From Anaerolineae bacterium (lineage in GTDB: Bacteria; Chloroflexota; Anaerolineae; B4-G1; SLSP01), in NCBI GenBank assembly GCA_049974845.1, contig JBNGCP010000006.1:22386-86385 (forward strand): a stretch of 64,000 nucleotides of DNA, given 5' to 3'. Below are positions 23,459 to 37,050 of the stretch, piece after piece. Position numbers and translations under genes: made by a program. The stretch's first letter is position 1. Each line of letters opens with the position of its first letter. Below the pieces are notes generated by a model, which saw only the letters and a program-made list of their open reading frames with translations, made no database searches and was not told the DNA's origin.

Positions 23459-24202
23459 CTAAGGCTTGTGCGCGCGGATGAGAAAGAAGGGCAGGTGCGC
23501 GACCTGCGACCACGGCCCCGAACGAGTAGCGGCAGCACTCCGGATCTCAGCCAACCTCGACCGCTCTTCCACCGTCAGAGGCAGGTCCTCAAGGTAGTCA
23601 AAGCGCGAGAGAGCGGGCGGAAAAAGGGTATCGAAGAGCGAGATGTGCACGCTAAACCCTCGCTCCGCGAGAAGCCCGGGCAGCTTTCGACCGACATAAG
23701 GATCGGCGCCGGCACGCGTCAGCGCGCTGATCCATAGCGGACGGCTGCGGATCTCAGGTGGATGCTCGATCATCCCATCGTAGTCGGGTTCCAGCGCGAC
23801 GAAGGCCCCGCCGGGCTGCAACACGCGCCAGATCTCATCCACCGCGAGGGACAAAGGGCTGACCCACAGCAGGGTCACCTGCGAGAACACCAAATCAAAG
23901 ACCCCATCGGCGACCGGCAGCCGGGTGGCATCCGCGGCAAGCTTCGAGGTCCCCCTGGGACTCTGCCACGATCGCAGCGCCGCAAACGCAAGGTCTAATG
24001 CGACCACCCGCCCCCGCGACCGTCGTCGAAGCTCCGCAGCAACCGTACCGAACCCAGTCCCGAGGTCGAGAACGCGGTTGCGGCGAGCCACGTGGACCCG
24101 CCGCAACAAAACCGACCGAGCCGGCGCAAGCCATTCAGCCTGCTGTGCCATCAGCGCCGGCTCCGGCAGCGCAAAGCTGAGGCCGCTATTCATTCGCGCC
24201 AA
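23459..24202 (-). CDS. Class I SAM-dependent methyltransferase
   Basis: It has the SAM-binding motif I (VLDLGTGFGTV) and motif post-I (VVALDL). It is the last gene of the minus-strand rSAM cluster. Confidence 0.75.
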   Translation of the reverse strand: MARMNSGLSFALPEPALMAQQAEWLAPARSVLLRRVHVARRNRVLDLGTGFGTVAAELRRRSRGRVVALDLAFAALRSWQSPRGTSKLAADATRLPVADGVFDLVFSQVTLLWVSPLSLAVDEIWRVLQPGGAFVALEPDYDGMIEHPPEIRSRPLWISALTRAGADPYVGRKLPGLLAERGFSVHISLFDTLFPPALSRFDYLEDLPLTVEERSRLAEIRSAAATRSGPWSQVAHLPFFLIRAHKP

Positions 24203-24208
24203 CGCACG

Positions 24209-26113
24209 CTAACGTCCGCCCCCCGCGCAGGCGCAGGCACACGCACAACCGGCGCAGGCGCACGCGCAGCTGCTGCGACCACCACCACCGCTCCCGCCGC
24301 TGCTCTTTGAGGCCTTGGACATCGCCTCAAAGACGTCACCGGTGACACGATCGACGCCACTAAGGTCGACGAAACCACCCTTAGCACCGGGGATGTTCAT
24401 CGAGCCAGGCAGAACCGCCGCAGCCATGCTGCCCATCGTCGTCTCCGCCCAACCGGAAAAAGAGGCCGCGACGTCGCCGAAGGAGGTCCGCCCCCCGCCA
24501 CTGGGGCGCGCGGTCGGCGCCCCGCCGCCGGCGCCCGAGGTCACGGGTCCGCCGGTCGGGCGCGCCCACATGGGCCAGTAGTGGTAACCTCCATGCGTCA
24601 AGACCGTCGGGTAATTGTCGTTCATCATAACCCAGGGCAGATACTTATCGAGGTATTGCTCGCGTTCCCGGACCTCACCCATCTGTCTGGCTTGCTCCAT
24701 CGCCCGCGAGATCACGCGTTCGTAGTACTCCCGGGTCTGCGCGAGGTCGAACCCCTCCATCTTGGCAGCGGTGGACGTGATCAGGCCCTCCATCGCGGCG
24801 GTGAAATCAATCTTCTCCACCGGCTTGTTCGGATTGCGCTCCAACTGATCCAGGAAATCTTGCTCGTAGGCGTGAATGACCGTGCCCGCCTGTTGAGCCG
24901 CCGTTTGACGGGCATTGTGGCGCTTCTTCTTCGAGCGTCGCAGGTCGGGATCGTCCCACATCTTGAATGCATCGTTGACCTTCACGGTCAACGGATCCGG
25001 CTTCACGAGCGTCACGATGCCTTTTTCCAGCAGACCAAACATGGCCAGGGTGAGAATCTTGTGGAGCGGCAACTCCAACAGGATGGCAGCCTCAGGTGCC
25101 GTGAGCCCGCGCTTGATACCGCCACCCTCCACCTGGGCGATGGGTGGCAGATAGTCGTGGGGCTTTTTCTTCAGACGGACTTCATTGAAGATGACAAGCG
25201 CAATCAGCACCGGAATAGCTGGCAGCATCAGAATGGGCGCAGCAAAGAAGAGCAGGATCGCGCCGCCCGCGAGGATAGCAAAGACGGTGCAGCCCGTCCC
25301 GCCCGAGAACCGGAAGAAGAGCAAAGCCAGGAGGCCCACATTGATGGCCCCAAGGATGAGCCGGGCGCCGGGATTGTCGGCAAGCCACCGGTTCACCAGT
25401 TCGATCAACGTCATGCGCTCGACGCGTGTCATCACCCGCTGCGGGAAAGACACCCCGACCATGCGCGGCCCTGTGAGGCTGACATCCTCCCATTCCCAGA
25501 GGACAACGGTGTGGCCCTGGAACAAGGCCCTGTCTGTAAAGGGCTCCTGCTGATAAAGGGCTTCCTCCGGTTCCACGCCTTCAGGCAAGTGAACGGCGAT
25601 TGCAAGCTCGCTCGCACCACGAACGGATTCCTCGTCAAACCAGGTGGGCGTGATGCGGAACGAGGCAAAATCTCGGTTCGTCGTGTCCTGATAGACCATA
25701 TCCGGCATCGTGGCCTCGAAGTGGAGCGTCGCCGTCTCACCCGGTGAGATGGCCATTTCGCGCAGGTGAATCTCGACGCCGATGTCGACATACTCGGAGG
25801 TCCGAATATCGTTCAAGGTGACGCCATCGATGCTGGCTGTCATGTTGTCGATAGTGTAGTCCCTGTGCGGCAGACCAATGTCGACAATGTCGATGGGCGA
25901 TCCCTGGTTTTCGAACGTGATGTCATAGACCAACCGGGCCGAGGCATCGGGTTGGACGTAGACCTGCAATTCCATTCTCGGCACAGCGAACACGTAGCTC
26001 TGTGCGCTTGCCGGATGGATGCTCGCCCCCAGCAACACAAGCACGACAAAGAGTGACACTACCAAAGAGAGGCGTTTAGACATATCCGTGTTCACCTCCG
26101 TGCGATGCTCCAT
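24209..26113 (-). CDS. Large membrane protein A, DUF2207-like architecture, with C-terminal Gly-rich/Cys-Ala tail (…GGSGGGGRSSCACACAGCACACACAGGGR)
   Basis: It is 634 aa with a signal/TM, a ~230-aa extracytoplasmic domain, a TM cluster, a ~300-aa cytoplasmic domain (YHYWP) and a Gly-rich segment ending in a 7-Cys alternating Cys-Ala tail. It is a paralog of 26140..27915. Confidence 0.7.
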   Translation of the reverse strand: MEHRTEVNTDMSKRLSLVVSLFVVLVLLGASIHPASAQSYVFAVPRMELQVYVQPDASARLVYDITFENQGSPIDIVDIGLPHRDYTIDNMTASIDGVTLNDIRTSEYVDIGVEIHLREMAISPGETATLHFEATMPDMVYQDTTNRDFASFRITPTWFDEESVRGASELAIAVHLPEGVEPEEALYQQEPFTDRALFQGHTVVLWEWEDVSLTGPRMVGVSFPQRVMTRVERMTLIELVNRWLADNPGARLILGAINVGLLALLFFRFSGGTGCTVFAILAGGAILLFFAAPILMLPAIPVLIALVIFNEVRLKKKPHDYLPPIAQVEGGGIKRGLTAPEAAILLELPLHKILTLAMFGLLEKGIVTLVKPDPLTVKVNDAFKMWDDPDLRRSKKKRHNARQTAAQQAGTVIHAYEQDFLDQLERNPNKPVEKIDFTAAMEGLITSTAAKMEGFDLAQTREYYERVISRAMEQARQMGEVREREQYLDKYLPWVMMNDNYPTVLTHGGYHYWPMWARPTGGPVTSGAGGGAPTARPSGGGRTSFGDVAASFSGWAETTMGSMAAAVLPGSMNIPGAKGGFVDLSGVDRVTGDVFEAMSKASKSSGGSGGGGRSSCACACAGCACACACAGGGR

Positions 26114-26139
26114 CAGAACCCAACGCTATACCCCCGACC

Positions 26140-27915
26140 TCAGCGCCCGCCACCGGCACAGGCACAGGCGCAGGCGCAGCCTGCGCACGCACAGGCACAA
26201 CTGCTCCCCGAGCCTCCCCGCGAGACGGTCACACCAGTGGACGGTTTGCTGAGCGTGGTCGGCAGAATGGCAGCTGCCATCCCGCCCATCGTCGTCTCCG
26301 CCCAGCCGGCAAAGGAAGCCGACACATCACCAAAGGTGGTGGACGGTCGCCCTGATCCACCCGAGACAGCCCCTCCACCGATGCTACTTCCGGCAGTGCT
26401 CACCGTACCGCGAGCTTGTCGCGCCCACACGGGCCAGTAATGGTAACCGCCCAGCCTCAGGGCCGGCCTGTAGTTCGGCCGCATCATGACCCAAGGGAGG
26501 TACTTATCGAGATAGGCCTCACGCTGCTCGATCTCGCCAATGCTCGCAGCCTGCTCCATCGCACGATCGATCACCCGACGATAGTACTCCTGGGTATCGG
26601 AGAGATCGAAACCCTCCATCTTCGCTGCGACGCCGTCGACGAGCTTCTGCATCGGGTTGACGACGGGCAGCTCCTTGACCGGCTTGCCGGGATGGACCTC
26701 GATCAGGTCCAGGAACGGATGCTCGTACTCGTGGATCACGGTGCCCTTCTGTTGGGCCACCTGACGGCGATAGCGCTTCCGGCTCTCCGCGTCCTTTAAT
26801 TCGGGCTTGCCTTCCACCTGAAAGTCGTCGACGACCTCCAGGGTGAGAGGATCTGCATCAGTCTGGCGCACGAGTCCCTTTTCCAGCATTCCAAAGACCA
26901 CCAGCCCCAGCACCTTGGTTAGGGGCAGCTCCAGGACGATCGCGGCTTCCGGAGCCGTAAGTCCGCGCTTGATGCCGCCGCCCTCAACTTGTGCGATCGG
27001 GGGAAGATAGTTGGGTTTGAGGCCGCGGATGACGGCGCGAACGATGACGAAGATAAAGAAGGCGGGAATGGCAACGGGCAGACAGAACATAAGGATCGCC
27101 CCGATCACGGGAAGCACCCCGCCCAACCATCGTCCAAGCAAATCCCAGAAGGTGACCTCAATGACGTTGGTCATGCCACGTCGGGGGAACGAGACGCCCA
27201 CCCGATAGGCCTCCGTCAACCGGATGTCCTCGTACCGCCAGATCGCCACGACTCGCCCCTCATCGTCCAGCACCTTGTCGTCGAAAGGCTCATCCTGGTA
27301 GAGAACCTCGTCGAGCTCGATACTCGGCAGCGTCCTGACCCGAATCTCGACGTCACTCGTGCCCTGCACGAGTTCGCCGTCGAACCAGGTTGGCGTGATC
27401 TGCAGGGAAGCGTTCTCCTCGTTGGTCGTATCGGCATAGACCATCTCAGGCGAGTCAAACTCGAGATGCAGTGTCCCCGTCTCGCCCGCCGGAATAGCGT
27501 ACGGCCCTAGATGGATCTCCACGCCAACGTCGATGTATTCTGAAGGGCGGATGTCCGACACCGGATTGCCGTCGATCGTCGCCACCATCTGATCGACGTC
27601 GTAATCGGCGTTCGGCGTGCCGATATCCACAATGTCGATGGGATCTCCGGAGTTCTCGAACGTGATGTCGTAGACGATGTGGGCGGAGCCATCGGGTTGT
27701 ACAGTTGCACTCAGCAATAGCTCGGGCACGGCGAAGCGGTAAGTCTGCACGTAGGGGCGCGCCAGAACAGTGCCGGCGCCCGAGCCGAGAAGACCCAGGA
27801 GCACAGCCAAGGCCACGACCAGCGCCACAGCCCGCCTTCTGATCGTCGGGGCCACCGTCCTCTCGCGCGTGTCCACCCTTCCGTGGGAGTGTCTATGACC
27901 GGCTGGTCGGGTCAT
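26140..27915 (-). CDS. Large membrane protein B, paralog of A, with identical C-terminal tail SSCACACAGCACACACAGGGR
   Basis: The track ORF extends to 27933, but the probable start is ATG 27915..27913. That ATG overlaps the TGA of the upstream rSAM-like gene by 1 nt. It has the same domain order as protein A; the last 21 aa are identical although encoded by different codons. Confidence 0.7.
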   Translation of the reverse strand: MTRPAGHRHSHGRVDTRERTVAPTIRRRAVALVVALAVLLGLLGSGAGTVLARPYVQTYRFAVPELLLSATVQPDGSAHIVYDITFENSGDPIDIVDIGTPNADYDVDQMVATIDGNPVSDIRPSEYIDVGVEIHLGPYAIPAGETGTLHLEFDSPEMVYADTTNEENASLQITPTWFDGELVQGTSDVEIRVRTLPSIELDEVLYQDEPFDDKVLDDEGRVVAIWRYEDIRLTEAYRVGVSFPRRGMTNVIEVTFWDLLGRWLGGVLPVIGAILMFCLPVAIPAFFIFVIVRAVIRGLKPNYLPPIAQVEGGGIKRGLTAPEAAIVLELPLTKVLGLVVFGMLEKGLVRQTDADPLTLEVVDDFQVEGKPELKDAESRKRYRRQVAQQKGTVIHEYEHPFLDLIEVHPGKPVKELPVVNPMQKLVDGVAAKMEGFDLSDTQEYYRRVIDRAMEQAASIGEIEQREAYLDKYLPWVMMRPNYRPALRLGGYHYWPVWARQARGTVSTAGSSIGGGAVSGGSGRPSTTFGDVSASFAGWAETTMGGMAAAILPTTLSKPSTGVTVSRGGSGSSCACACAGCACACACAGGGR

Positions 27916-29222
27916 CACCCACCTCGGGCCCATCCTTCTGGATCACGCGGGCACGCAGCCGCGCAAATGGCAAGGCCAGGGCAGACCTCGCAGCGGGTCG
28001 GCGCCTCCACGCGCTCGCGATAGTCGCGAAAGACCGCGTCGTTCCAGATCGTGTCCCATGAGTCCCGCAGAAGGTTACCCGCACTCCGGTAGGGCCCACG
28101 GGGTGGGATGACCTCACCGGTGGGCTCGATGCGGACGGCCACGTCCCCAGAGCATCGCGGCCCCTGCAGAATCTGGTCCATCAACGACCTGTTTGGATCC
28201 CTTTCCACCGGCGGATCCCAGATGAACCGTGCGTTGGCCATATCAGCGGTCTCCTCGACGGTCGCAGCCACCTGAGCCATGCCCTCGCGGCTGAAGATAC
28301 CCTCGGCCCGCGCGAGCTGTGGATCCGTCGTCGGATAAGCGATAAAGGAGAGATTGTCAGCGCCATTCGCGATGAGCACGTCCACCGTCGCGTTGATGCG
28401 ATCGAGCGTCGCCTGGACCAAGGGGATCTCGGCCACCGCCGCGATCTGATAAGTCTCCAGCCAATCGAGCACGCTCTGTGCCATAAGGAAATCGCCCTCG
28501 CCGCAGAGGCTATCGTGAATCTCTTGGTCGGCCGCAGCATAGAGGAAGGTCACGTGGTCGACGCCGGTCTGACGAAGGTCGGGCAGGAATCCTTCCACGG
28601 CCAAGGTTGTCGCACGTCCCCTGACACCGGCGATCATGCCCAGATCTTCCGCTCGCTCCACAACCCTTAGCACATCGGTCGGCTCACAGCCGTATGGGAC
28701 GAGGATCGTCACGTGCGGGATCCCCACTTCCCAAAGGCGGTCGAGAATGGGTATAATCACCTTCGGCTCCACCAGTGGCACCGTCGCCTGCAGCGGAGCG
28801 ATGAGCTCGGCAGCATAGGGGGAGAGCGAGGCATCCTCCAGATTGAAGACCGGATACGTATCACCGGGCGCCCTAAGTCGCTCAATGAGAGCGTGCACCT
28901 TCGCGATGTCCCCGCGTACGATCTCCTCCTTGGCGCCGGAGAAGTGCGCTCTCAACCTCTCAACGATCTCGTCGGGGGTTCGGCCCTCAAGCAGGCCCTT
29001 GGCAATGACCACACCCGACGCCGTCAAACGAGCGGCAGCCATCGCGTTGGCGATCAGCATCCCGCTGCCATCCTTCTCCACCCGCAGGTGGAATCGGGCA
29101 AACGCGTCGTCGGTCTCCTGCATCACGTGATAGAGCCCGGGCTCTACGGGCGCGGTGGGTTCGGCGCGCTCAAAGGACAGCAAGCGCTTCAACCAGTCCT
29201 GGGCCATAGACGACCTCCTCAC
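27915..29222 (-). CDS. Degenerate radical-SAM/SPASM-like protein (CxxxCxxC lost, SPASM Cys cluster retained)
   Basis: It is 435 aa and aligns along its length with the 30581..32086 rSAM protein (PGLY...RV.EDGSG N-domain, IPHVTIL core). Where the paralog has YACNNACPHC it has no Cys triad. It retains the C-terminal GPRCSGD...CEVCPGLAICAAACP cluster. Confidence 0.65.
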   Translation of the reverse strand: MRRSSMAQDWLKRLLSFERAEPTAPVEPGLYHVMQETDDAFARFHLRVEKDGSGMLIANAMAAARLTASGVVIAKGLLEGRTPDEIVERLRAHFSGAKEEIVRGDIAKVHALIERLRAPGDTYPVFNLEDASLSPYAAELIAPLQATVPLVEPKVIIPILDRLWEVGIPHVTILVPYGCEPTDVLRVVERAEDLGMIAGVRGRATTLAVEGFLPDLRQTGVDHVTFLYAAADQEIHDSLCGEGDFLMAQSVLDWLETYQIAAVAEIPLVQATLDRINATVDVLIANGADNLSFIAYPTTDPQLARAEGIFSREGMAQVAATVEETADMANARFIWDPPVERDPNRSLMDQILQGPRCSGDVAVRIEPTGEVIPPRGPYRSAGNLLRDSWDTIWNDAVFRDYRERVEAPTRCEVCPGLAICAAACPRDPEGWARGG

Positions 29223-29225
29223 AAC

Positions 29226-29942
29226 CTATGCTTGTTGGGGTTGTTGGTATTTTCTTTCGAACAGATCGGGCTCGTAAGCCGCACGTCGCCCCGGACATTC
29301 CCCCCGCGGGCAGAGCTGGCAGCTCTCAAACCGCTCCTCCGTCGGGAATCGAATGCCGGAGATGGTCTTGTTTGGGATCATCAGAAAGCTCTCGGTCAGC
29401 TGCACCCCAATCGCCGCCTCGGGATCCCCGAGAATCCGGAAAAGGGGACGCTGCTGCCGGATCGGCCAATCGGCCAAGGAGCCCGGAGCCATCGTCGACG
29501 TGCGTCCCAAGGCATAGCACTCGTACAGATGGGCGTTAAGCGCCTGCGTCGCCGCCCCCAGCGCGGCCTCCTTGATCGCGTCAGCCCAGTAACGATAGAG
29601 CATATCGTCGAGGCCGTCACTCCAGGTCTGCAGTTCCGCCCCGCACGTGGCGATATAGACGAAAACCCGATGAGCCACCGCAAGGTTGACTCGCAATACG
29701 CGGCTGTGCAGCCTCACGCCGTCGACGGTCACACTCTCGTCGGACCTGTCGTCGACGTAGGCGAGCTTGTACATGGCCTTAGGCCTGGCGATCGCCGCGG
29801 CTGTCTTGAGCAGCCCGGCAAACTCGGCAAGCTGCTGGCTGCCGTCCTTGAGCCTCAGACGTTTGGCCAATGAGCCAAGGTCAGGCTGAAAAACAATGTC
29901 ATCGAGTATGTAAGGTCTCTCGCCGTTATCGATTGCGTTCAT
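29226..29942 (-). CDS. MetH activation-domain-like (AdoMet-binding) protein with C-terminal CxxCxxxxC motif
   Basis: It is 238 aa. The segment LTESFLMIPNKTISGIRF and the preceding PGSLADWP resemble the conserved core of the B12-dependent methionine synthase reactivation domain (E. coli LTESFAMWPGASVSGWYF). The C-terminus is SCQLCPRGECPG. Confidence 0.5.
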   Translation of the reverse strand: MNAIDNGERPYILDDIVFQPDLGSLAKRLRLKDGSQQLAEFAGLLKTAAAIARPKAMYKLAYVDDRSDESVTVDGVRLHSRVLRVNLAVAHRVFVYIATCGAELQTWSDGLDDMLYRYWADAIKEAALGAATQALNAHLYECYALGRTSTMAPGSLADWPIRQQRPLFRILGDPEAAIGVQLTESFLMIPNKTISGIRFPTEERFESCQLCPRGECPGRRAAYEPDLFERKYQQPQQA

Positions 29943-29986: not shown

Positions 29987-30523
29987 TCACGATCGGTGGG
30001 CCACCAACAGCCCTCGAATCAGGGCCAACAGCCCCAGGCCGATGAAGAGGATCGGCCACCCGATGAAGTCCAGGCCAAGACCGCTGATATTCAGGATCAG
30101 TTCAAAGAAGACCAGGCCCACGAGAAACATGATCAGCCCGATGTTCACCAGGGTCGAACCGGTCCGTATGGCGCTCTCCCTACGCTTGCTCCAACCATAG
30201 AGCATCTCTGCCAAGCCTATACCAGTTGGGGTGATCAGCGCCCACACGTAGGCCCAACTGGTCCAGTGCCCTGTGACACTTTGATAGAGCAGCACCAATC
30301 CTACCATCGTGACAATCCCGCTCAACATTGCGAAAGGCTCACTCAAGGGCGTATCGGCGGCAAGGGCGAAGAGGAAGATCAAGACGCCGGGCAGAATGAC
30401 AAAGAAGGGCCACAGGAAAGCGCCGATGTTGAGCTGCAAAAACTGCCCGACCAGGGCCAGGACCCCCAGGACGATCAGAGCAATACCGAGTGCCCGAACA
30501 AACGCTCTTGGTCCCTCAAACAT
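29987..30523 (-). CDS. Integral membrane protein (5-6 TM), unknown function
   Basis: It is a 178-aa, very hydrophobic protein inside the rSAM cluster. Confidence 0.55.
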   Translation of the reverse strand: MFEGPRAFVRALGIALIVLGVLALVGQFLQLNIGAFLWPFFVILPGVLIFLFALAADTPLSEPFAMLSGIVTMVGLVLLYQSVTGHWTSWAYVWALITPTGIGLAEMLYGWSKRRESAIRTGSTLVNIGLIMFLVGLVFFELILNISGLGLDFIGWPILFIGLGLLALIRGLLVAHRS

Positions 30524-30580: not shown

Positions 30581-32086
30581 CTAGCGTCGCGTCCCCGTCA
30601 GGACGCCCTCCTGTGTCGCAGATCGATCGTCGGTGAATGACACGACGCGGCCCGACCCCCGTCGGGTAGGGCGAGAACACCCGCGCTCAGCCGCCCGAAT
30701 CCCGGCCCGCGCTTCTCGCTCCAACCGGCATCCCCCCCCGCACATCTCCAGGTCCGGACAATCCCAGCAGGCCTCCGGCAACCCCGCGGCTTGCGGGTCC
30801 TCCTCACGATTTCGGAAGCTGAGGAAGAGCTCGCTATTCCATATACTCTCCCACGGATCGGCAAGGATGTTGCCTGCGGTGACGTAGTAAGACTGACAAG
30901 GGAGGACGACGCCGTTGGGCTCGATGCAGATCGAGTATTCGGCTGCATTGCAGCGCTTGGGCGGCAGGCCCAGCGCCACCGGGGACAAGCGGCAGTAGTC
31001 GGTCACCGTGTACCAGAGGAACCGCATGTTGAGCCGCTCGGCCTCGTCCCTCACCGCAGCGAGCAGGGCCGCCATGTCCTCAGCCGGAATGGCAGCGGGC
31101 GTACTCGTCCCTCCTCCGGCATGGATAATACCGTTCATCGCGAAGGTCTGTAGACCTAACTCATGGAGAAACCTGACGGTATCGAGGACGTGATCCTGAT
31201 TTTGCCGGGTAACGGTCGTATTGGTGATGGTGTGTATGCCGGCGTCCAGCGCGCTCTGAATCCCCGCAACCGTCTCTTCGAAAGCGCCCTCCACACCCAC
31301 CATCTCATCATGGACGGAGCGGTAGCACGACTCCAGCGTGATCTGCACGTGGTTGAGCCCTGCTGCTGCCAGCGAGGTCGTCAACACTCGATCCGCGAGG
31401 CGACGTCCGTTGCTGTTCATGCCGACGATCAGACCGAGTCCGTCGGCATACCGAACCAACTGCGCCAGGGCGGGATGGAGTGTCGGCTCACCGCCGGTCA
31501 GGATGACGTGAGGAATGCCGATGTCCAGGATCCGATCGAAGACCCGCATCCAGTCGCGCGTGGTGAGCGAAGCCATCGCGAACCGTTCCTGCTCGTTATA
31601 GCAATGTGGGCAGGCATTGTTGCAGGCATAGGTGAGCGCGACGTCCACCTTATAGGGCGCCGTGACGGGCGTGCTGAAGATCGGCTGAAAATCCACAAGC
31701 GGCCCTAGGGCGCACGTCGGACAGATATTGTCGGTCTCTCGCAAACGCCGAACCATATCATACATCGTGGCGACCGCCTCCGAGAGCTCTCCTTTCGTGA
31801 CACCGCGGTACCGACGAATCATCCGGTCTCGCGCCTCGGCCTGCGGGACGTCGTCCAGCGCTAGCTTGACCATCTCGACGGCAGTCGCATTAAGATGGAT
31901 CACGTCGGTGACGTCGATAAAGAGCACGCCCGAGCCATCCTCGTTGACGCGTAGATGCACGCGGCGCTGCCCCCCGTCCAAGACCAAGGGATAGCTGTAG
32001 AGGCCGGGAGCCATTGCCACCGACCCAGGCTGCAACAGAGCCCGGACGGTAGTCATCAGACGATGCCACTCCGACGATAGATTCAT
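30581..32086 (-). CDS. Radical SAM/SPASM-domain maturase with N-terminal extension
   Basis: It has the canonical CxxxCxxC (YACNNACPHCYNE), a GGEPTL SAM-binding motif and a C-terminal SPASM region (CQSYY...CWDCPDLEMCGGGC). The ~120-aa N-terminal domain is shared with the degenerate paralog. Confidence 0.85.
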   Translation of the reverse strand: MNLSSEWHRLMTTVRALLQPGSVAMAPGLYSYPLVLDGGQRRVHLRVNEDGSGVLFIDVTDVIHLNATAVEMVKLALDDVPQAEARDRMIRRYRGVTKGELSEAVATMYDMVRRLRETDNICPTCALGPLVDFQPIFSTPVTAPYKVDVALTYACNNACPHCYNEQERFAMASLTTRDWMRVFDRILDIGIPHVILTGGEPTLHPALAQLVRYADGLGLIVGMNSNGRRLADRVLTTSLAAAGLNHVQITLESCYRSVHDEMVGVEGAFEETVAGIQSALDAGIHTITNTTVTRQNQDHVLDTVRFLHELGLQTFAMNGIIHAGGGTSTPAAIPAEDMAALLAAVRDEAERLNMRFLWYTVTDYCRLSPVALGLPPKRCNAAEYSICIEPNGVVLPCQSYYVTAGNILADPWESIWNSELFLSFRNREEDPQAAGLPEACWDCPDLEMCGGGCRLEREARAGIRAAERGCSRPTRRGSGRVVSFTDDRSATQEGVLTGTRR

Positions 32087-32316: not shown

Positions 32317-32724
32317 TCACCACTTTGGGGCTTCTTCGATCTGGTAAGAGGCCCCACAGTACGGACACTCGACGAAAATGGCGCCCGCCTTGACCTCAAG
32401 GTTGCCCTTGCTCAGGGCGCCGCCACAGGACCGACACTTCAGCTGCTCTAGCTGAACATCGCCCGACAGGTCGATCTTCTGTACGTGGGTGTGTTCCTCA
32501 TGTTTGGGGCGAACGCGCGTCAGATAGATGAGCACGCCGGCCGCAGCGAAAAGGATCAGACCGACGACGATGCGTATAACCTGTCCCTGCGATCCCACCA
32601 CAAACATAAACCCGAAAAAGGCCACCACCGCGGCAATCAGGTAGGTCAAGAGCTCCATCGCGTTCTCCTCCACAGGCGTTTTGGGTTGCAGCAGGTAGTA
32701 TAGTCGATCCGCCATGCTCGTCAA
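32317..32724 (-). CDS. Small membrane protein with C-terminal zinc-ribbon (CxxC-x15-CxxC)
   Basis: It is 135 aa with two TM helices and then CRSCGG...CPYCG. It is the first gene of the minus-strand cluster; its start may be the internal Met (MELLTYL). Confidence 0.55.
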   Translation of the reverse strand: MTSMADRLYYLLQPKTPVEENAMELLTYLIAAVVAFFGFMFVVGSQGQVIRIVVGLILFAAAGVLIYLTRVRPKHEEHTHVQKIDLSGDVQLEQLKCRSCGGALSKGNLEVKAGAIFVECPYCGASYQIEEAPKW

Positions 32725-33997: not shown

Positions 33998-35331
33998 TCA
34001 GGCGGGGGTCGCCTCGGCACCGTCCTCGAGGATGACCTCGCCCGCATCGCCGTCGACGGTGACGGTCATCCCGCTTTGAATGCGCTTCGTAGCGACGCCG
34101 GTGCCCAGGACAGCAGGGATGCCGTACTCACGGGCGACGATGGAGCCGTGGCTCAGCGGCCCACCGATGTTGGTGACGATGCCCGAGGCCATCGCGAAGA
34201 GCGGCGTCCAGGCTGGCGTGGTGACGTCCGCCACGAAGATGTCCCCGTGCTGCATCTGATCGAAGTCCTCGGGACCGTGCAGCACCCGCGCGCACCCCGT
34301 CACCCGGCCCGGGCTGGCGCCGAGCCCTTGAGCGCGGTCTCTTTCTGTTCCTCCGCGCTTGTCGGGACGTAAGCGTCCGTCTTGAGGCCCATCACCCGTT
34401 CCTTGTACGGCAACTGTGGCGGAGGCGTGACGCGCTTCTCGGCGCGCCACGTCATCTTTCGCTCCTTAACGCGCTCTGCGTACGTCCCCAGCGGCTCATC
34501 GCGGTCGAGGGCGGCAGCTGCGGTCTCCACTTCGTCCCGCTCAAGCCAGAAGATGTCGTCCGGCGCCTCAAGCGCTCCGGCGTCGACCATGCGCTGACCC
34601 AGCTCCTGCAACATCTGTCGGATGTAGGGATAGGCCAGACCGATATCAAAGATGCTGTCCTCACGCACCACTGTGAAGGTCTGCGCCCATTCCAGTGTCT
34701 TGTTGAAGATTTTGCGTCTCAGGCCACCAACCCTCTCCCGCACCGCCGCGATCGCCTCCTCGCGCTCCTCGCGCAGTCGCTGCTGGCGCGCATAGGGGTT
34801 CTGCCCCTCACCCCGAAGGAAGATGATGAAAGTTCGCAATGGTGGGGTCGGGTCGTCAGCCGGGACGGGTTTGGCGAAGTCAAGATCGTAAATACTGTGC
34901 CCGTACTCGTCCAGATAGGCTCGGAAGCGCTCTAACCATCCCTGCCACGGATCGGCGCGGACGCCGGAGGGAACACCCTTGTGCTTCAGCCCATCTACCA
35001 GCTCGGAGATCAGGGCACGTGTCAGGTAAGCCGTCAGACCCTCATACTCCCGGCACCATTCGGCCAGATCGTAAAGCGCTTTCTCCGCCTGGATGGGCAG
35101 GCTGTCCGCACCGAGGAGGAACGTCGGTGCCGGCGGATCCTGGGCGCCCTTGCGCTTGATCAGCTTCTGGTAGACTGTCGTGAAGAGCATCTCGGAGCCT
35201 GCAGCGATTCCAAGGGTGTCGACCTGCAGCGCGGTGATGGCGCGGGCCTGCACGATGGCGAACTCTCCCTCGACCATCGCCCACTCGATATCACGGGGGT
35301 CGCCGAAGAGCTCCTCGATCTCGCGGCCCAA
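33998..35331 (-). pseudogene. PEP-utilising enzyme (PEP synthase/rifampin-phosphotransferase-like) remnant, N-terminally truncated and frameshifted
   Basis: The 343-aa ORF carries the end of the ATP-grasp/PPDK_N domain (DIEWAMVEGEFAIVQARAIT). The 150-aa ORF carries the PEP-utiliser mobile domain (GGPLSHGSIVAREYGIPAV). The two are joined by a -1 shift at a G-run (ctcaagggctcggc versus expected ctcaaggggctcggc). About 330 N-terminal residues are missing. Confidence 0.65.
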
Positions 35332-35739: not shown

Positions 35740-37050
35740 CTAGTTCGCCGGGTTCAGCGTGCGACCAACGAAGAGCAGCGCGCCGGTCTCGATATCGCGA
35801 ATCAGGAAGATAAAGGGGCGGTCCACCGTCATCTCCACCGGCTCCTCGGGCATCGCCGAGGTCAGGCCGACGACGACGGCAGTCGCCGCCGCTGCCTCGG
35901 TGCCCTCCTCATCCACGGAGACGAAAGCCTGGTGGAGCACATCGGTAATCATCAGCTCCCGCCGCTCGTTTATGCCGGAGAAATCAGCCTCCTCAGTGAA
36001 GGCCACGGGCATGCCCAGCTCCGATAGCGCATCGGTCAGGCTGAACTTCGATGAGAACTCGAATCGGGGCATCGCCAGGTTGACGCGCTGGCTCTGCAGT
36101 GCGCTGAGGATCGAAGCCAGCTTCTCGCGGTCGAGGTCGCGTTCAAAGTCGGCGAACTCCCCGGAATCCGGCAGCAGGATCACCATCGACAGCTCGCGCC
36201 CGTCATAGGGAAGCTCGACTGCCTGATAGCCGTCCCCCGCCGTATAAGCAAAGCGTTCAGTTTGGCGCATCATCGGAACCTCAACGGAGCTCCCATCGAG
36301 AAGGTAGAAGGGGCCGTCTTCGGTCCGGCTCTCCTCAAAGGGCTCGGCCCAGGCAGCGTTGAAGTAGATTGCGTTGGTGAGGACCAGTCGGGTGAAGGCA
36401 TCGAGCACGCCTTGGGGGATCAGATCCTCGATCCGTCCCTCGGTCTGTTCGCTGACCCAGGCGTTGATCGTCTGGCGGGCCCCTTCGGCGTCTTCGACGA
36501 AGTCCACCAGGCGCAAACCTGCGCCGTAGTTCCGGGCGAGCGTGTCGAGGAAGGCCTGCTCGAAGTCGTAGCCTTGTTGGCCCCACAGCGCGTTGACGAC
36601 GTGCAGTCGGAAGCCCTCACCGTCCTTGCCCTTGGCGTCCTCCCCACGCGCACTCAGAATCAGATCGAGCTGATTGAATGCAGCGTGAAGCTCATCCTGA
36701 GGCAGCGTGAAGTGGAGCGTATCCGCCATCTGGGACTCCGTCTCACCGCGCGCGCCGGCATACGTCATCGCGAGCGCCACCGAGATGCTGTGCGGCGAGA
36801 GGAACAGGTCGTCCTGCGACCGATCCGCCAGGTAACGATACAGTTCCAGGGCAAAAGCCTGGTTATCCTCCACGAGCCGCGCAAGCGCCTGTCCGCTGAC
36901 GTCCGGCTCGGCGATGCGCGACGCGTCCGAGGCCGCTAAAACGATCTTGTCTCCCATAGCGTTGTCACCCAATGGATTGAGCCCACACCCTACAAGTCCA
37001 AGAAGGACCACTAGCCATACAAAGCGTTTCACATAAGTCTGCATGTGCAT
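35740..37050 (-). CDS. Serpin-family protease inhibitor, lipoprotein
   Basis: It has a lipobox (LGLVGCG), serpin motifs (NAIYFNAAWAEPF; hinge and RCL region GTEAAAATAVVV; C-terminal PFIFLIRDIETGALLFVGR) and is 436 aa. Confidence 0.8.
   Translation of the reverse strand: MHMQTYVKRFVWLVVLLGLVGCGLNPLGDNAMGDKIVLAASDASRIAEPDVSGQALARLVEDNQAFALELYRYLADRSQDDLFLSPHSISVALAMTYAGARGETESQMADTLHFTLPQDELHAAFNQLDLILSARGEDAKGKDGEGFRLHVVNALWGQQGYDFEQAFLDTLARNYGAGLRLVDFVEDAEGARQTINAWVSEQTEGRIEDLIPQGVLDAFTRLVLTNAIYFNAAWAEPFEESRTEDGPFYLLDGSSVEVPMMRQTERFAYTAGDGYQAVELPYDGRELSMVILLPDSGEFADFERDLDREKLASILSALQSQRVNLAMPRFEFSSKFSLTDALSELGMPVAFTEEADFSGINERRELMITDVLHQAFVSVDEEGTEAAAATAVVVGLTSAMPEEPVEMTVDRPFIFLIRDIETGALLFVGRTLNPAN

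What the first reader, a model, noticed from the sequence alone, without database searches (positions are those of the whole stretch)
24209..26230. Tail conserved at protein level but not at DNA level between the two paralogs
The last 21 residues of both proteins are identical (SSCACACAGCACACACAGGGR). The coding DNA differs at many synonymous positions: revcomp 24209.. reads ggt ggt cgc agc agc tgc gcg tgc gcc…gga cgt taa, while revcomp 26140.. reads agc agt tgt gcc tgt gcg tgc gca…ggg cgc tga. The stop codons also differ (TAA versus TGA). The rest of the two proteins has diverged substantially. This pattern indicates purifying selection on the exact tail peptide rather than recent gene conversion or low-complexity drift. 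That fits a specific recognition or modification substrate.
Basis: seen in the sequence. Interest (0 to 1): 0.75.

Follow-up and report, generated by a model that had tools for sequence, protein, structure and literature searches.

The report
Invariant Cys-Ala tail, radical-SAM partner
Two neighbouring membrane-protein genes end in the same 21-residue cysteine-alanine tail, which marks an unannotated protein family found in many bacterial phyla and almost always encoded beside a radical SAM enzyme that probably modifies the tail.

Summary
Paralogs A (24209..26113, -) and B (26140..27933, -) both end in SSCACACAGCACACACAGGGR. The 21 tail codons carry 16 synonymous and 0 non-synonymous differences. 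The bodies are about 55% identical with saturated dS. One error: A stops at TAG, not TAA.

All 120 closest homologs end in CACAGCACACACAGGGR. A body-only search found 105 of 150 cluster representatives ending in (CA)2-5-[G, rarely S or a short insert]-(CA)3-4-GGGR; 4 more keep a shortened version and nearly all the rest look like fragments. A DNA pattern scan hit the tail in genomes labelled as about 10 phyla, in 126 distinct DNA versions. A short Firmicutes form carries the motif internally.

The tail gene sits in a conserved cassette: zinc-ribbon membrane protein, radical SAM/SPASM enzyme with an RRE-like N-terminal domain, a cluster-less paralog of that enzyme, the tail protein(s), and a SAM methyltransferase. 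In Firmicutes only the radical SAM enzyme and the tail protein remain, as a two-gene operon.

Best reading: the predicted cytoplasmic tail is a protein-embedded substrate of the radical SAM enzyme, probably for cysteine-based crosslinking. The chemistry is untested. No Pfam or NCBIfam family and no paper describes it.

The parts
24212..24274 (-). Tail of paralog A: the 21 codons for SSCACACAGCACACACAGGGR. The TAG stop lies at 24209..24211.
26143..26205 (-). Tail of paralog B: the same 21 residues with 16 synonymous differences. The TGA stop lies at 26140..26142.
24209..26113 (-). Paralog A (A-type tail protein). The probable start is at 26083, giving 624 aa. Order of parts: signal peptide, beta-sandwich ectodomain, three TM helices, helical cytoplasmic domain, VDLSGVDRVTGDVF motif, Gly/Ser linker, tail.
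   Evidence: P0001 is 100% identical, from an Anaerolineae MAG. AF2 model, Foldseek, hydropathy.
26140..27933 (-). Paralog B (B-type tail protein). It has the same architecture with a shorter TM block and lacks the VDLSG..VTGD motif. Its exact start is uncertain.
   Evidence: B-type orthologs occur in other Anaerolineae loci.
27915..29222 (-). Pseudo-radical-SAM paralog. It has an RRE/PqqD-like N-terminal domain and a radical-SAM-like barrel that lacks the CxxxCxxC segment. Its SPASM domain keeps CX2CX5CX3C.
   Evidence: 27% identical to the true enzyme, E 1e-36, with the cluster segment missing from the alignment.
29226..29942 (-). 238-aa protein with weak similarity to the methionine-synthase activation (SAM-binding) domain. 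It is an accessory gene found together with B-type paralogs.
29987..30523 (-). 178-aa polytopic membrane protein with no family hit. It is an accessory gene of the Anaerolineae cassettes.
30581..32086 (-). Radical SAM/SPASM enzyme with CNNACPHC, a complete SPASM cysteine set and an N-terminal RRE-like domain. This is the proposed maturase.
   Evidence: (Radical_SAM E 4.8e-25, SPASM 6.4e-10), (SkfB, PqqE, SuiB; TfuB1).
32317..32658 (-). 113-aa membrane protein with two TM helices and a CxxC...CxxC zinc ribbon, ending EEAPKW. It is the first gene of the cassette. The ORF as listed extends to 32724.
23459..24202 (-). Class I SAM-dependent methyltransferase. It contains no cysteine and is the last gene of the cassette.
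   Evidence: It lies downstream in 61 of 87 loci.

Best explanation
A and B belong to a large unannotated family of membrane proteins. Its hallmark is a C-terminal peptide, (Cys-Ala)2-5-Gly-(Cys-Ala)3-4-Gly-Gly-Gly-Arg. The tail follows the last transmembrane block and a helical domain, so it is predicted to lie in the cytoplasm. It is predicted to be disordered. I propose it is the core peptide of a protein-embedded, RiPP-like maturation system. The co-encoded radical SAM/SPASM enzyme, helped in many lineages by a cluster-less paralog, would dock through its RRE-like N-terminal domain and modify the cysteines. Intramolecular thioether crosslinks to neighbouring Ala or Gly carbons are the most likely chemistry, as in sactipeptides, ranthipeptides and QhpC. 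The class I methyltransferase of the long-form cassettes would add a further modification. One speculative target is the free GGGR carboxyl end, which only the long form has. Every residue would be constrained because the enzyme and the crosslinked product need an exact register. This explains strict amino-acid invariance alongside free synonymous drift. Shown: the invariance, the peptide-level selection, the synteny and the enzyme features. Inferred: that the tail is the substrate, the chemistry, the topology and the final function of the modified tail.
For: Peptide-level selection: the tail has 16 synonymous and 0 non-synonymous differences between A and B. All 120 nearest homologs carry the tail. 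With a tail-less query, 105 of 150 representatives carry it. The 127 occurrences comprise 126 distinct DNA versions.

Partnership with the enzyme: a radical SAM or pseudo-SAM gene lies directly upstream in 53 of 57 long-form loci that have at least 1.5 kb of upstream sequence. The true radical SAM gene is present in 31 of 36 loci with at least 3.2 kb. The (CA)4-G-(CA)3 subfamily has the same cassette in a different gene order. In the five complete short-form loci from the genome scan, the only genes conserved across them are the radical SAM/SPASM gene and the tail protein. In the Firmicutes short-form loci these two genes form an operon with adjacent or overlapping stop and start codons. The tail is by far the most conserved element shared by the long and short forms.

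Enzyme type: CxxxCxxC plus a full SPASM motif. The nearest solved relatives are the peptide modifiers SkfB (Cys thioether), PqqE and SuiB. The N-terminal domain profile matches the lasso-peptide RRE TfuB1 at E 0.0013, with weak PqqD hits.

Location: K/R-rich sequence follows the last TM segment, and the short form has an N-in, one-ectodomain, one-TM layout. The tail has pLDDT below 35.
Against: There is no direct evidence of any modification. The cassettes contain no leader protease or exporter, so this is not a classical secreted RiPP. The upstream motif VDLSGxDxVTGD is absent from B-type, from the (CA)4-G-(CA)3 subfamily and from the short form, so what the RRE recognises is unclear. Three Planctomycetota loci have no radical SAM gene within about 3.9 kb upstream. 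Seven closely spaced cysteines would also make a good metal site without any modification. The RRE assignment rests on sub-threshold scores. The TM count of B is ambiguous (a 42-residue hydrophobic block), so its topology is inferred.
Confidence: 0.55

Rival explanations
1. The tail is an unmodified metal- or iron-sulfur-binding site: a CxCxC..CxCxCxC thiolate cluster similar to metallothionein. The radical SAM enzyme and its partners would act on something else, such as the zinc-ribbon protein, a lipid or a small molecule, or would merely exchange clusters with the tail.
For: The tail has 6-7 cysteines at i, i+2 spacing in a flexible, probably cytoplasmic segment. The cysteine count varies between 6 and 8 among subfamilies while the pattern is kept, which suits a cluster site. 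No modification has been shown.
Against: Metal sites rarely require invariant Ala at every alternate position or an invariant GGGR end across many phyla. The two-gene operons in Firmicutes leave the tail protein as the only conserved co-encoded candidate substrate for a peptide-type radical SAM/SPASM enzyme with an RRE-like domain.
Confidence: 0.22
2. The tail is a membrane-targeting element: a short hydrophobic tail anchor, a C-terminal sorting signal, or a multiply S-acylated cysteine string. It would be conserved for recognition by a sorting or acylating machine rather than for radical chemistry.
For: Mean Kyte-Doolittle hydropathy of CACACAGCACACACAGGG is 1.58, close to the TM threshold, and a terminal Arg follows, recalling motif-helix-basic sorting tails. 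The long forms end exactly at the Arg.
Against: No sortase-like, exosortase-like or acyltransferase gene is conserved in the cassette. A simple anchor would tolerate Ala to Val, Leu or Gly changes, which are almost never seen. In the short form the motif is internal and is followed by a charged segment.
Confidence: 0.07
3. The identity of the two tails is a DNA-level artefact, such as recent gene conversion, slippage of a simple GC-rich repeat, or an overlapping feature on the other strand.
For: The region has a weak 6-nt periodicity. Long antisense ORFs exist, as they do everywhere in this GC-rich DNA.
Against: There are 16 synonymous differences in 21 codons between the copies and the stop codons differ. 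The 127 occurrences comprise 126 distinct DNA versions, with 42% mean third-position identity.
Confidence: 0.01

Closest known systems
Sactipeptide and ranthipeptide systems (SkfB, AlbA, CteB; the SCIFF maturases)
   Same: A radical SAM/SPASM enzyme with an N-terminal RRE-like domain is encoded next to a cysteine-rich substrate sequence. SkfB is the nearest solved relative of the enzyme here.
   Different: The candidate substrate is the C-terminal tail of a 300-770-aa membrane protein, not a 40-60-aa secreted precursor. The cassette has no leader protease or exporter. The sequence is invariant across phyla rather than hypervariable. No NCBIfam maturase model reaches its cutoff. The chemistry is unknown.
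QhpD/QhpC (thioether crosslinking of the gamma subunit of quinohemoprotein amine dehydrogenase) and anSME/sulfatase
   Same: These are precedents, from general knowledge, for radical SAM/SPASM enzymes that modify cysteines in a protein that stays a working protein rather than becoming a natural product.
   Different: There is no sequence relationship. QhpC crosslinks Cys to Asp or Glu, and the tail here has only Ala and Gly as acceptors. The anSME motif C-x-[PA]-x-R is absent from the tail.
Radical SAM/SPASM systems predicted in silico: the ACGX-repeat peptide system (TIGR04340), the GeoRSP system (TIGR04303) and the haloarchaeal pseudo-SAM/SPASM family (TIGR04347)
   Same: A low-complexity Cys-containing repeat lies next to a radical SAM/SPASM enzyme (ACGX). 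A second SPASM protein without radical SAM cysteines accompanies the true enzyme (GeoRSP, and TIGR04347 as a precedent for a pseudo-enzyme).
   Different: The scores are far below the cutoffs: 61 bits against 400, 116 against 400 and 113 against 525. Targets in those systems are short peptides or unknown.
DUF2207 membrane proteins
   Same: The overall layout is similar (from memory): N-terminal signal or anchor, beta-rich ectodomain, TM block, and a Gly-rich C-terminus. A few members give weak PF09972 hits.
   Different: Only 1 of 75 members hits PF09972, at E 0.13, well short of significance. DUF2207 proteins are not known to carry the Cys-Ala tail or a radical SAM partner.

Membership tests
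Radical SAM / SPASM subfamily (enzyme at 30581..32086) | A CxxxCxxC motif for the SAM-binding 4Fe-4S cluster and a Radical_SAM domain above the Pfam gathering score | tested here: met
   CNNACPHC is present. PF04055 scores 89.1 bits against a cutoff of 29.5.
Radical SAM / SPASM subfamily (enzyme at 30581..32086) | A C-terminal SPASM domain with the Cx9-15Gx4C ... CX2CX5CX3C cysteine set | tested here: met
   PF13186 scores 39.6 bits against 21.5. The motifs CNAAEYSICIEPNGVVLPC and CWDCPDLEMCGGGC can be read in the sequence.
Radical SAM (paralog at 27915..29222) | A CxxxCxxC cluster motif | tested here: not met
   No such motif is present. The segment is a gap in the alignment to the true enzyme. 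The same holds in orthologs L001_436 and L002_429. It is therefore a pseudo-enzyme that keeps part of the SPASM domain (PF13186, 23.9 bits).
RRE / PqqD-like peptide-recognition domain (N-termini of both paralogs) | Sequence match to PqqD/RRE models or structures | tested here: inconclusive
   PF05402 scores 19.6 bits, below the 23.4 cutoff. NCBIfam lasso_PqqD scores 23.8 against 70. The profile of 37 N-terminal domains has the lasso RRE TfuB1 (6jx3_B) as its best PDB hit, at E 0.0013 over residues 23-93 of 99. One ortholog has a weak precomputed PF05402 hit.
Classical RiPP natural product | A short precursor with a cleavable leader, plus a protease and/or exporter in the cluster | tested here: not met
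   The candidate substrate proteins are 300-770 aa with signal peptides and TM helices. No protease or transporter is conserved in the cassettes.
Sactipeptide / ranthipeptide | Cys S to C-alpha, C-beta or C-gamma thioether crosslinks in the mature product | not testable with these tools
   This needs mass spectrometry or NMR on co-expressed protein.
SCIFF, ACGX, GeoRSP and other curated radical SAM target systems | The protein reaches the curated NCBIfam cutoff of the system's models | tested here: not met
   The tail proteins hit no family. The best enzyme scores, 61-129 bits, are far below the cutoffs of 265-850.
DUF2207 (PF09972 / PF20990) | Pfam gathering score reached | tested here: not met
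   A and B give 0 hits. One of 75 family members hits at E 0.13. One short-form protein hits at E 0.021, with 15.5 bits against 24.4.
anSME (formylglycine) substrates | A C/S-x-P/A-x-R motif | tested here: not met
   In CACACAGCACACACAGGGR no Cys is followed by x-[PA]-x-R (read from the sequence).

The most novel reading that the evidence does not exclude
The (Cys-Ala)n-Gly-(Cys-Ala)m-GGGR tail is the substrate of a previously unrecognised post-translational modification found in many phyla. A radical SAM/SPASM enzyme would turn the cytoplasmic end of a membrane protein into a densely crosslinked, or otherwise rebuilt, Cys/Ala ladder, perhaps with lanthionine-like Cys-S-to-Ala-C-beta links made by radical chemistry. 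The product would act as a built-in structural, redox or metal-handling module. The system occurs in thousands of proteins, including those of human-gut Firmicutes, and has no name yet.
Probability: 0.4. Interest if true: 0.85.

Novelty: new variant of a known kind. Interest (0 to 1): 0.78.

Why it matters
If the tail is modified, this would be one of the few cases where radical SAM peptide chemistry is applied to a full-length membrane protein rather than a secreted peptide. The target would be invariant across bacteria labelled as about ten phyla. The family is large: 730 representatives at 50% clustering, and more than 3,400 short-form clusters at 90% identity. It includes cultured gut Firmicutes such as Hungatella hathewayi, where the system shrinks to a two-gene operon that is easy to clone. 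That makes the question directly testable. It would also give names to several families that are now 'hypothetical protein' or just 'radical SAM protein', and it could reveal new cysteine chemistry. Even if the tail proves to be an unmodified metal site, its sequence invariance would remain unusual and worth explaining.

Tried and rejected
- Pfam and NCBIfam scans of A, B, four short-form proteins and all 75 alignment members found no family.
- A profile search of the PDB with the tail-protein alignment found nothing below E 0.5.
- Full-text literature searches for the tail strings returned 0 papers. Keyword searches found nothing relevant. The Haft and Basu 2011 paper on radical SAM target peptides is not in the library, so I could not check whether it mentions this system.
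I replaced it with a degenerate DNA pattern scan.
- The afdb50 fold library was unavailable.
- I considered the VDLSGxDxVTGD motif as the leader recognised by the RRE. It is missing from B-type, the second subfamily and the short form, so it cannot be the general recognition element.
- I considered an ArsM-like role for the methyltransferase and rejected it. The hits are generic class I matches and the protein has no cysteine.
- Gene conversion and repeat slippage are rejected.
Full report
**1. The observation**

Two tandem ORFs lie on the minus strand. A is 24209..26113 (634-aa ORF). Its product is 100% identical to a 624-aa hypothetical protein of an Anaerolineae MAG, so the likely start is 26083. 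B is 26140..27933 (597 aa). BLASTP aligns them at 50% identity, and a codon alignment gives 55% over the body.

Both end in SSCACACAGCACACACAGGGR. The 21 tail codons differ at 16 synonymous sites and at no non-synonymous site. The body has pS 0.69, dS about 1.9 and dN 0.41.

The tail is not the only conserved block. A 24-residue run, YLPPIAQVEGGGIKRGLTAPEAAI, is also identical. A degenerate pattern for the tail end occurs exactly twice in the window, with 0 expected by chance. TRF sees only the 6-nt periodicity that any (Cys-Ala)n coding region must have.

**2. Is the tail conserved elsewhere?**

- A whole-protein search returned more than 938 homologs. All of the best 120 (52-100% identity) end in CACAGCACACACAGGGR.
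- In a 75-sequence alignment with 58% mean column identity, the last 17 columns are invariant.
- To avoid circularity I searched 1.84 billion cluster representatives with the body only (residues 11-605). This gave 730 hits at E ≤ 0.001.
- Of the best 150 hits, 105 end in a tail of the form (CA)n-spacer-(CA)m-GGGR. The spacer is G in 99. The main variants, written as n-G-m, are 4-G-3 (42), 3-G-4 (29), 2-G-4 (14), 3-G-3 (7) and 5-G-3 (6).
- Of the 45 without a full tail, 4 keep a shortened or degenerate version. Nearly all the other 41 are short or end mid-domain, as fragments do.
The MAG labels include Chloroflexota, Planctomycetota, Armatimonadota, Hydrogenedentota, Myxococcota/'delta', Elusimicrobiota, Nitrospirota, Sumerlaeota, Zipacnadia, Pseudomonadota and Firmicutes, including the isolate Hungatella hathewayi WAL-18680. 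MAG labels may be imprecise.
- In about 600-aa homologs the motif is the extreme C-terminus, ending GGGR in all but a few.
- The 127 occurrences comprise 126 distinct DNA versions. Every synonymous codon is used, including all six Arg codons and all three stops.

Selection is therefore on the exact peptide.

**3. A second, short form**

Proteins of about 310-390 aa, mostly from Firmicutes, have an N-terminal anchor, a related ectodomain and one TM helix. An R/G/Y/H-rich stretch follows, and then ...(CA)n-[G/S/VSS]-(CA)4-GGGRAGCSxKDF(Y) plus a short charged end. This family is very large. 3,428 clusters scored E ≤ 0.001 among the 8,000 candidates tested, and 118 of the top 120 contain the motif.

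**4. What the proteins are**

- No Pfam or NCBIfam model matches the tail proteins. Only stray sub-threshold DUF2207 N-terminal hits appear.
- The AlphaFold2 model of A (pLDDT 79.5) shows a signal peptide, a confident beta-sandwich ectodomain (residues 32-214), three TM helices (about 238-306) and a helical domain (329-495). The tail has pLDDT below 35.
- The ectodomain resembles the N-terminal beta-sandwiches of Ost1/ribophorin I and M1 aminopeptidases, at Foldseek E about 1e-7.
- K/R-rich sequence after the last TM segment, together with the simple N-in layout of the short form, places the tail in the cytoplasm. This is an inference. The TM count of B is ambiguous.

**5. Gene neighbourhood**

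In the window the minus-strand cassette reads, 5' to 3':

| Gene | Coordinates | Evidence |
|---|---|---|
| 113-aa protein with two TM helices and a zinc ribbon | 32317..32658 | |
| Radical SAM/SPASM enzyme with CNNACPHC and a full SPASM motif | 30581..32086 | |
| 178-aa membrane protein | 29987..30523 | |
| 238-aa protein weakly similar to the MetH activation domain | 29226..29942 | |
| Paralog of the enzyme lacking CxxxCxxC (27% identical, E 1e-36) | 27915..29222 | |
| B | 26140..27933 | |
| A | 24209..26113 | |
| Class I methyltransferase | 23459..24202 | |

Searching these proteins against the ORFs of 124 loci gave the following:

- A radical SAM or pseudo-SAM gene lies directly upstream in 53 of 57 long-form loci with at least 1.5 kb upstream.
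- The true enzyme is present in 31 of 36 loci with at least 3.2 kb upstream.
- The zinc-ribbon gene is present in 18 of 24 loci with at least 4 kb upstream.
- The methyltransferase lies downstream in 61 of 87 loci.
- Three Planctomycetota loci (L081, L084, L093) lack an adjacent enzyme.

The 4-G-3 subfamily has the same components in a different order, and in L126 it again has tandem tail-bearing paralogs. Starting instead from an ortholog of the enzyme also led to a tail protein within 4 kb. In the five complete short-form loci from the genome scan, the only genes conserved across them are the enzyme and the tail protein. In the Firmicutes short-form loci these form a two-gene operon with adjacent or overlapping stop and start codons.

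**6. The enzyme**

- Its closest solved relatives are the peptide modifiers SkfB (2.8e-18), PqqE (3.8e-18) and SuiB.
- Its best curated-family scores, 61-129 bits, are far below the cutoffs.
- The N-terminal domain of about 100 aa, shared by enzyme and pseudo-enzyme, gives sub-threshold PqqD hits.
- As a 37-sequence profile, that domain finds the lasso-peptide RRE TfuB1 as its best PDB match, at E 0.0013.

**7. Interpretation**

The simplest account is that the tail is the substrate of the co-encoded radical SAM/SPASM enzyme. It would be a protein-embedded core peptide, and the cluster-less paralog would serve as a docking or chaperone subunit.

By analogy with SkfB-type, SCIFF-type and QhpD-type enzymes, cysteine-based thioether crosslinking is the most likely chemistry. 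In this tail the only possible acceptors are Ala and Gly.

The methyltransferase accompanies only the long form, which ends exactly at GGGR. It was not found next to the short form, where AGCSxKDF follows the Arg. This hints at a role for the free C-terminus, or at processing after the Arg in the short form. That is speculation.

The main rival is an unmodified metal- or Fe-S-binding tail. A membrane anchor or acylation site is less likely. DNA-level explanations are excluded.

**8. Novelty**

No curated family and no paper containing the motif was found in the library searched. One relevant 2011 paper could not be read. I file this as a new variant of a known kind: radical SAM/SPASM-RRE peptide maturation, here aimed at an invariant tail of a large membrane protein, with a pseudo-enzyme partner. 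It is widespread and readily testable.

Noticed in passing
window 32317..32724 (-); L001 6557..6898; L002 2123..2464; L125 7608..7970; L126 4317..4688; L131 15074..15454: The small zinc-ribbon membrane protein that opens the cassette has its own conserved C-terminus, E(E/Q)(A)PKW. It also has an 'IDL(S/P)GD' motif that resembles the 'VDLSGxDxVTGD' motif upstream of the A-type tail. This may be a shared docking motif.
   Followed up: partly
window 29226..29942 (-) and 29987..30523 (-); L002, L010, L042, L066, L097, L101: The 238-aa protein similar to the MetH activation domain was found only in cassettes that also carry a B-type paralog. All six loci that hold both a B-type gene and enough upstream sequence have it. 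The 178-aa membrane protein was found in the window and in L002-L004. This suggests at least the first gene serves B specifically.
   Followed up: partly
L131 9638..10534 (+); also P0249, P0263, P0267: A tail-less relative exists. It has one TM helix plus the same cytoplasmic helical domain, ends ...ATF(Y/F)G, and in L131 is encoded directly after the true radical SAM gene. L131 also has a second pseudo-radical-SAM that has lost even the SPASM cysteines.
   Followed up: partly
[not shown]
   Followed up: partly
L002 4165..5463, L003, L004: In some Anaerolineae a Ser/Thr protein kinase gene is inserted in the cassette between the radical SAM gene and the 178-aa membrane protein.
   Followed up: no
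window 35740..37050 (-): A full-length bacterial serpin gene (Pfam Serpin, E 8.7e-120) lies about 3.5 kb upstream of the cassette.
   Followed up: no
window 33998..34450 (-) and 34300..35331 (-): Two adjacent, overlapping ORFs match different parts of PEP-utilising enzymes (the PPDK_N end and the mobile/phosphohistidine domain). This may be a frameshifted or split gene.
   Followed up: no
window 27915..27933: The listed start of B overlaps the end of the pseudo-radical-SAM ORF by 19 nt. The N-terminus of B is long and Arg-rich compared with orthologs, so the true start may be further downstream.
   Followed up: no
L113 1792..2847 (+); L026 4692..5846 (-): Some short-form proteins outside Firmicutes extend the motif with further cysteine motifs. 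An example is GGGAAGCDRKLTHRCPLCQECPRKTTCP in a MAG labelled Planctomycetota.
   Followed up: no
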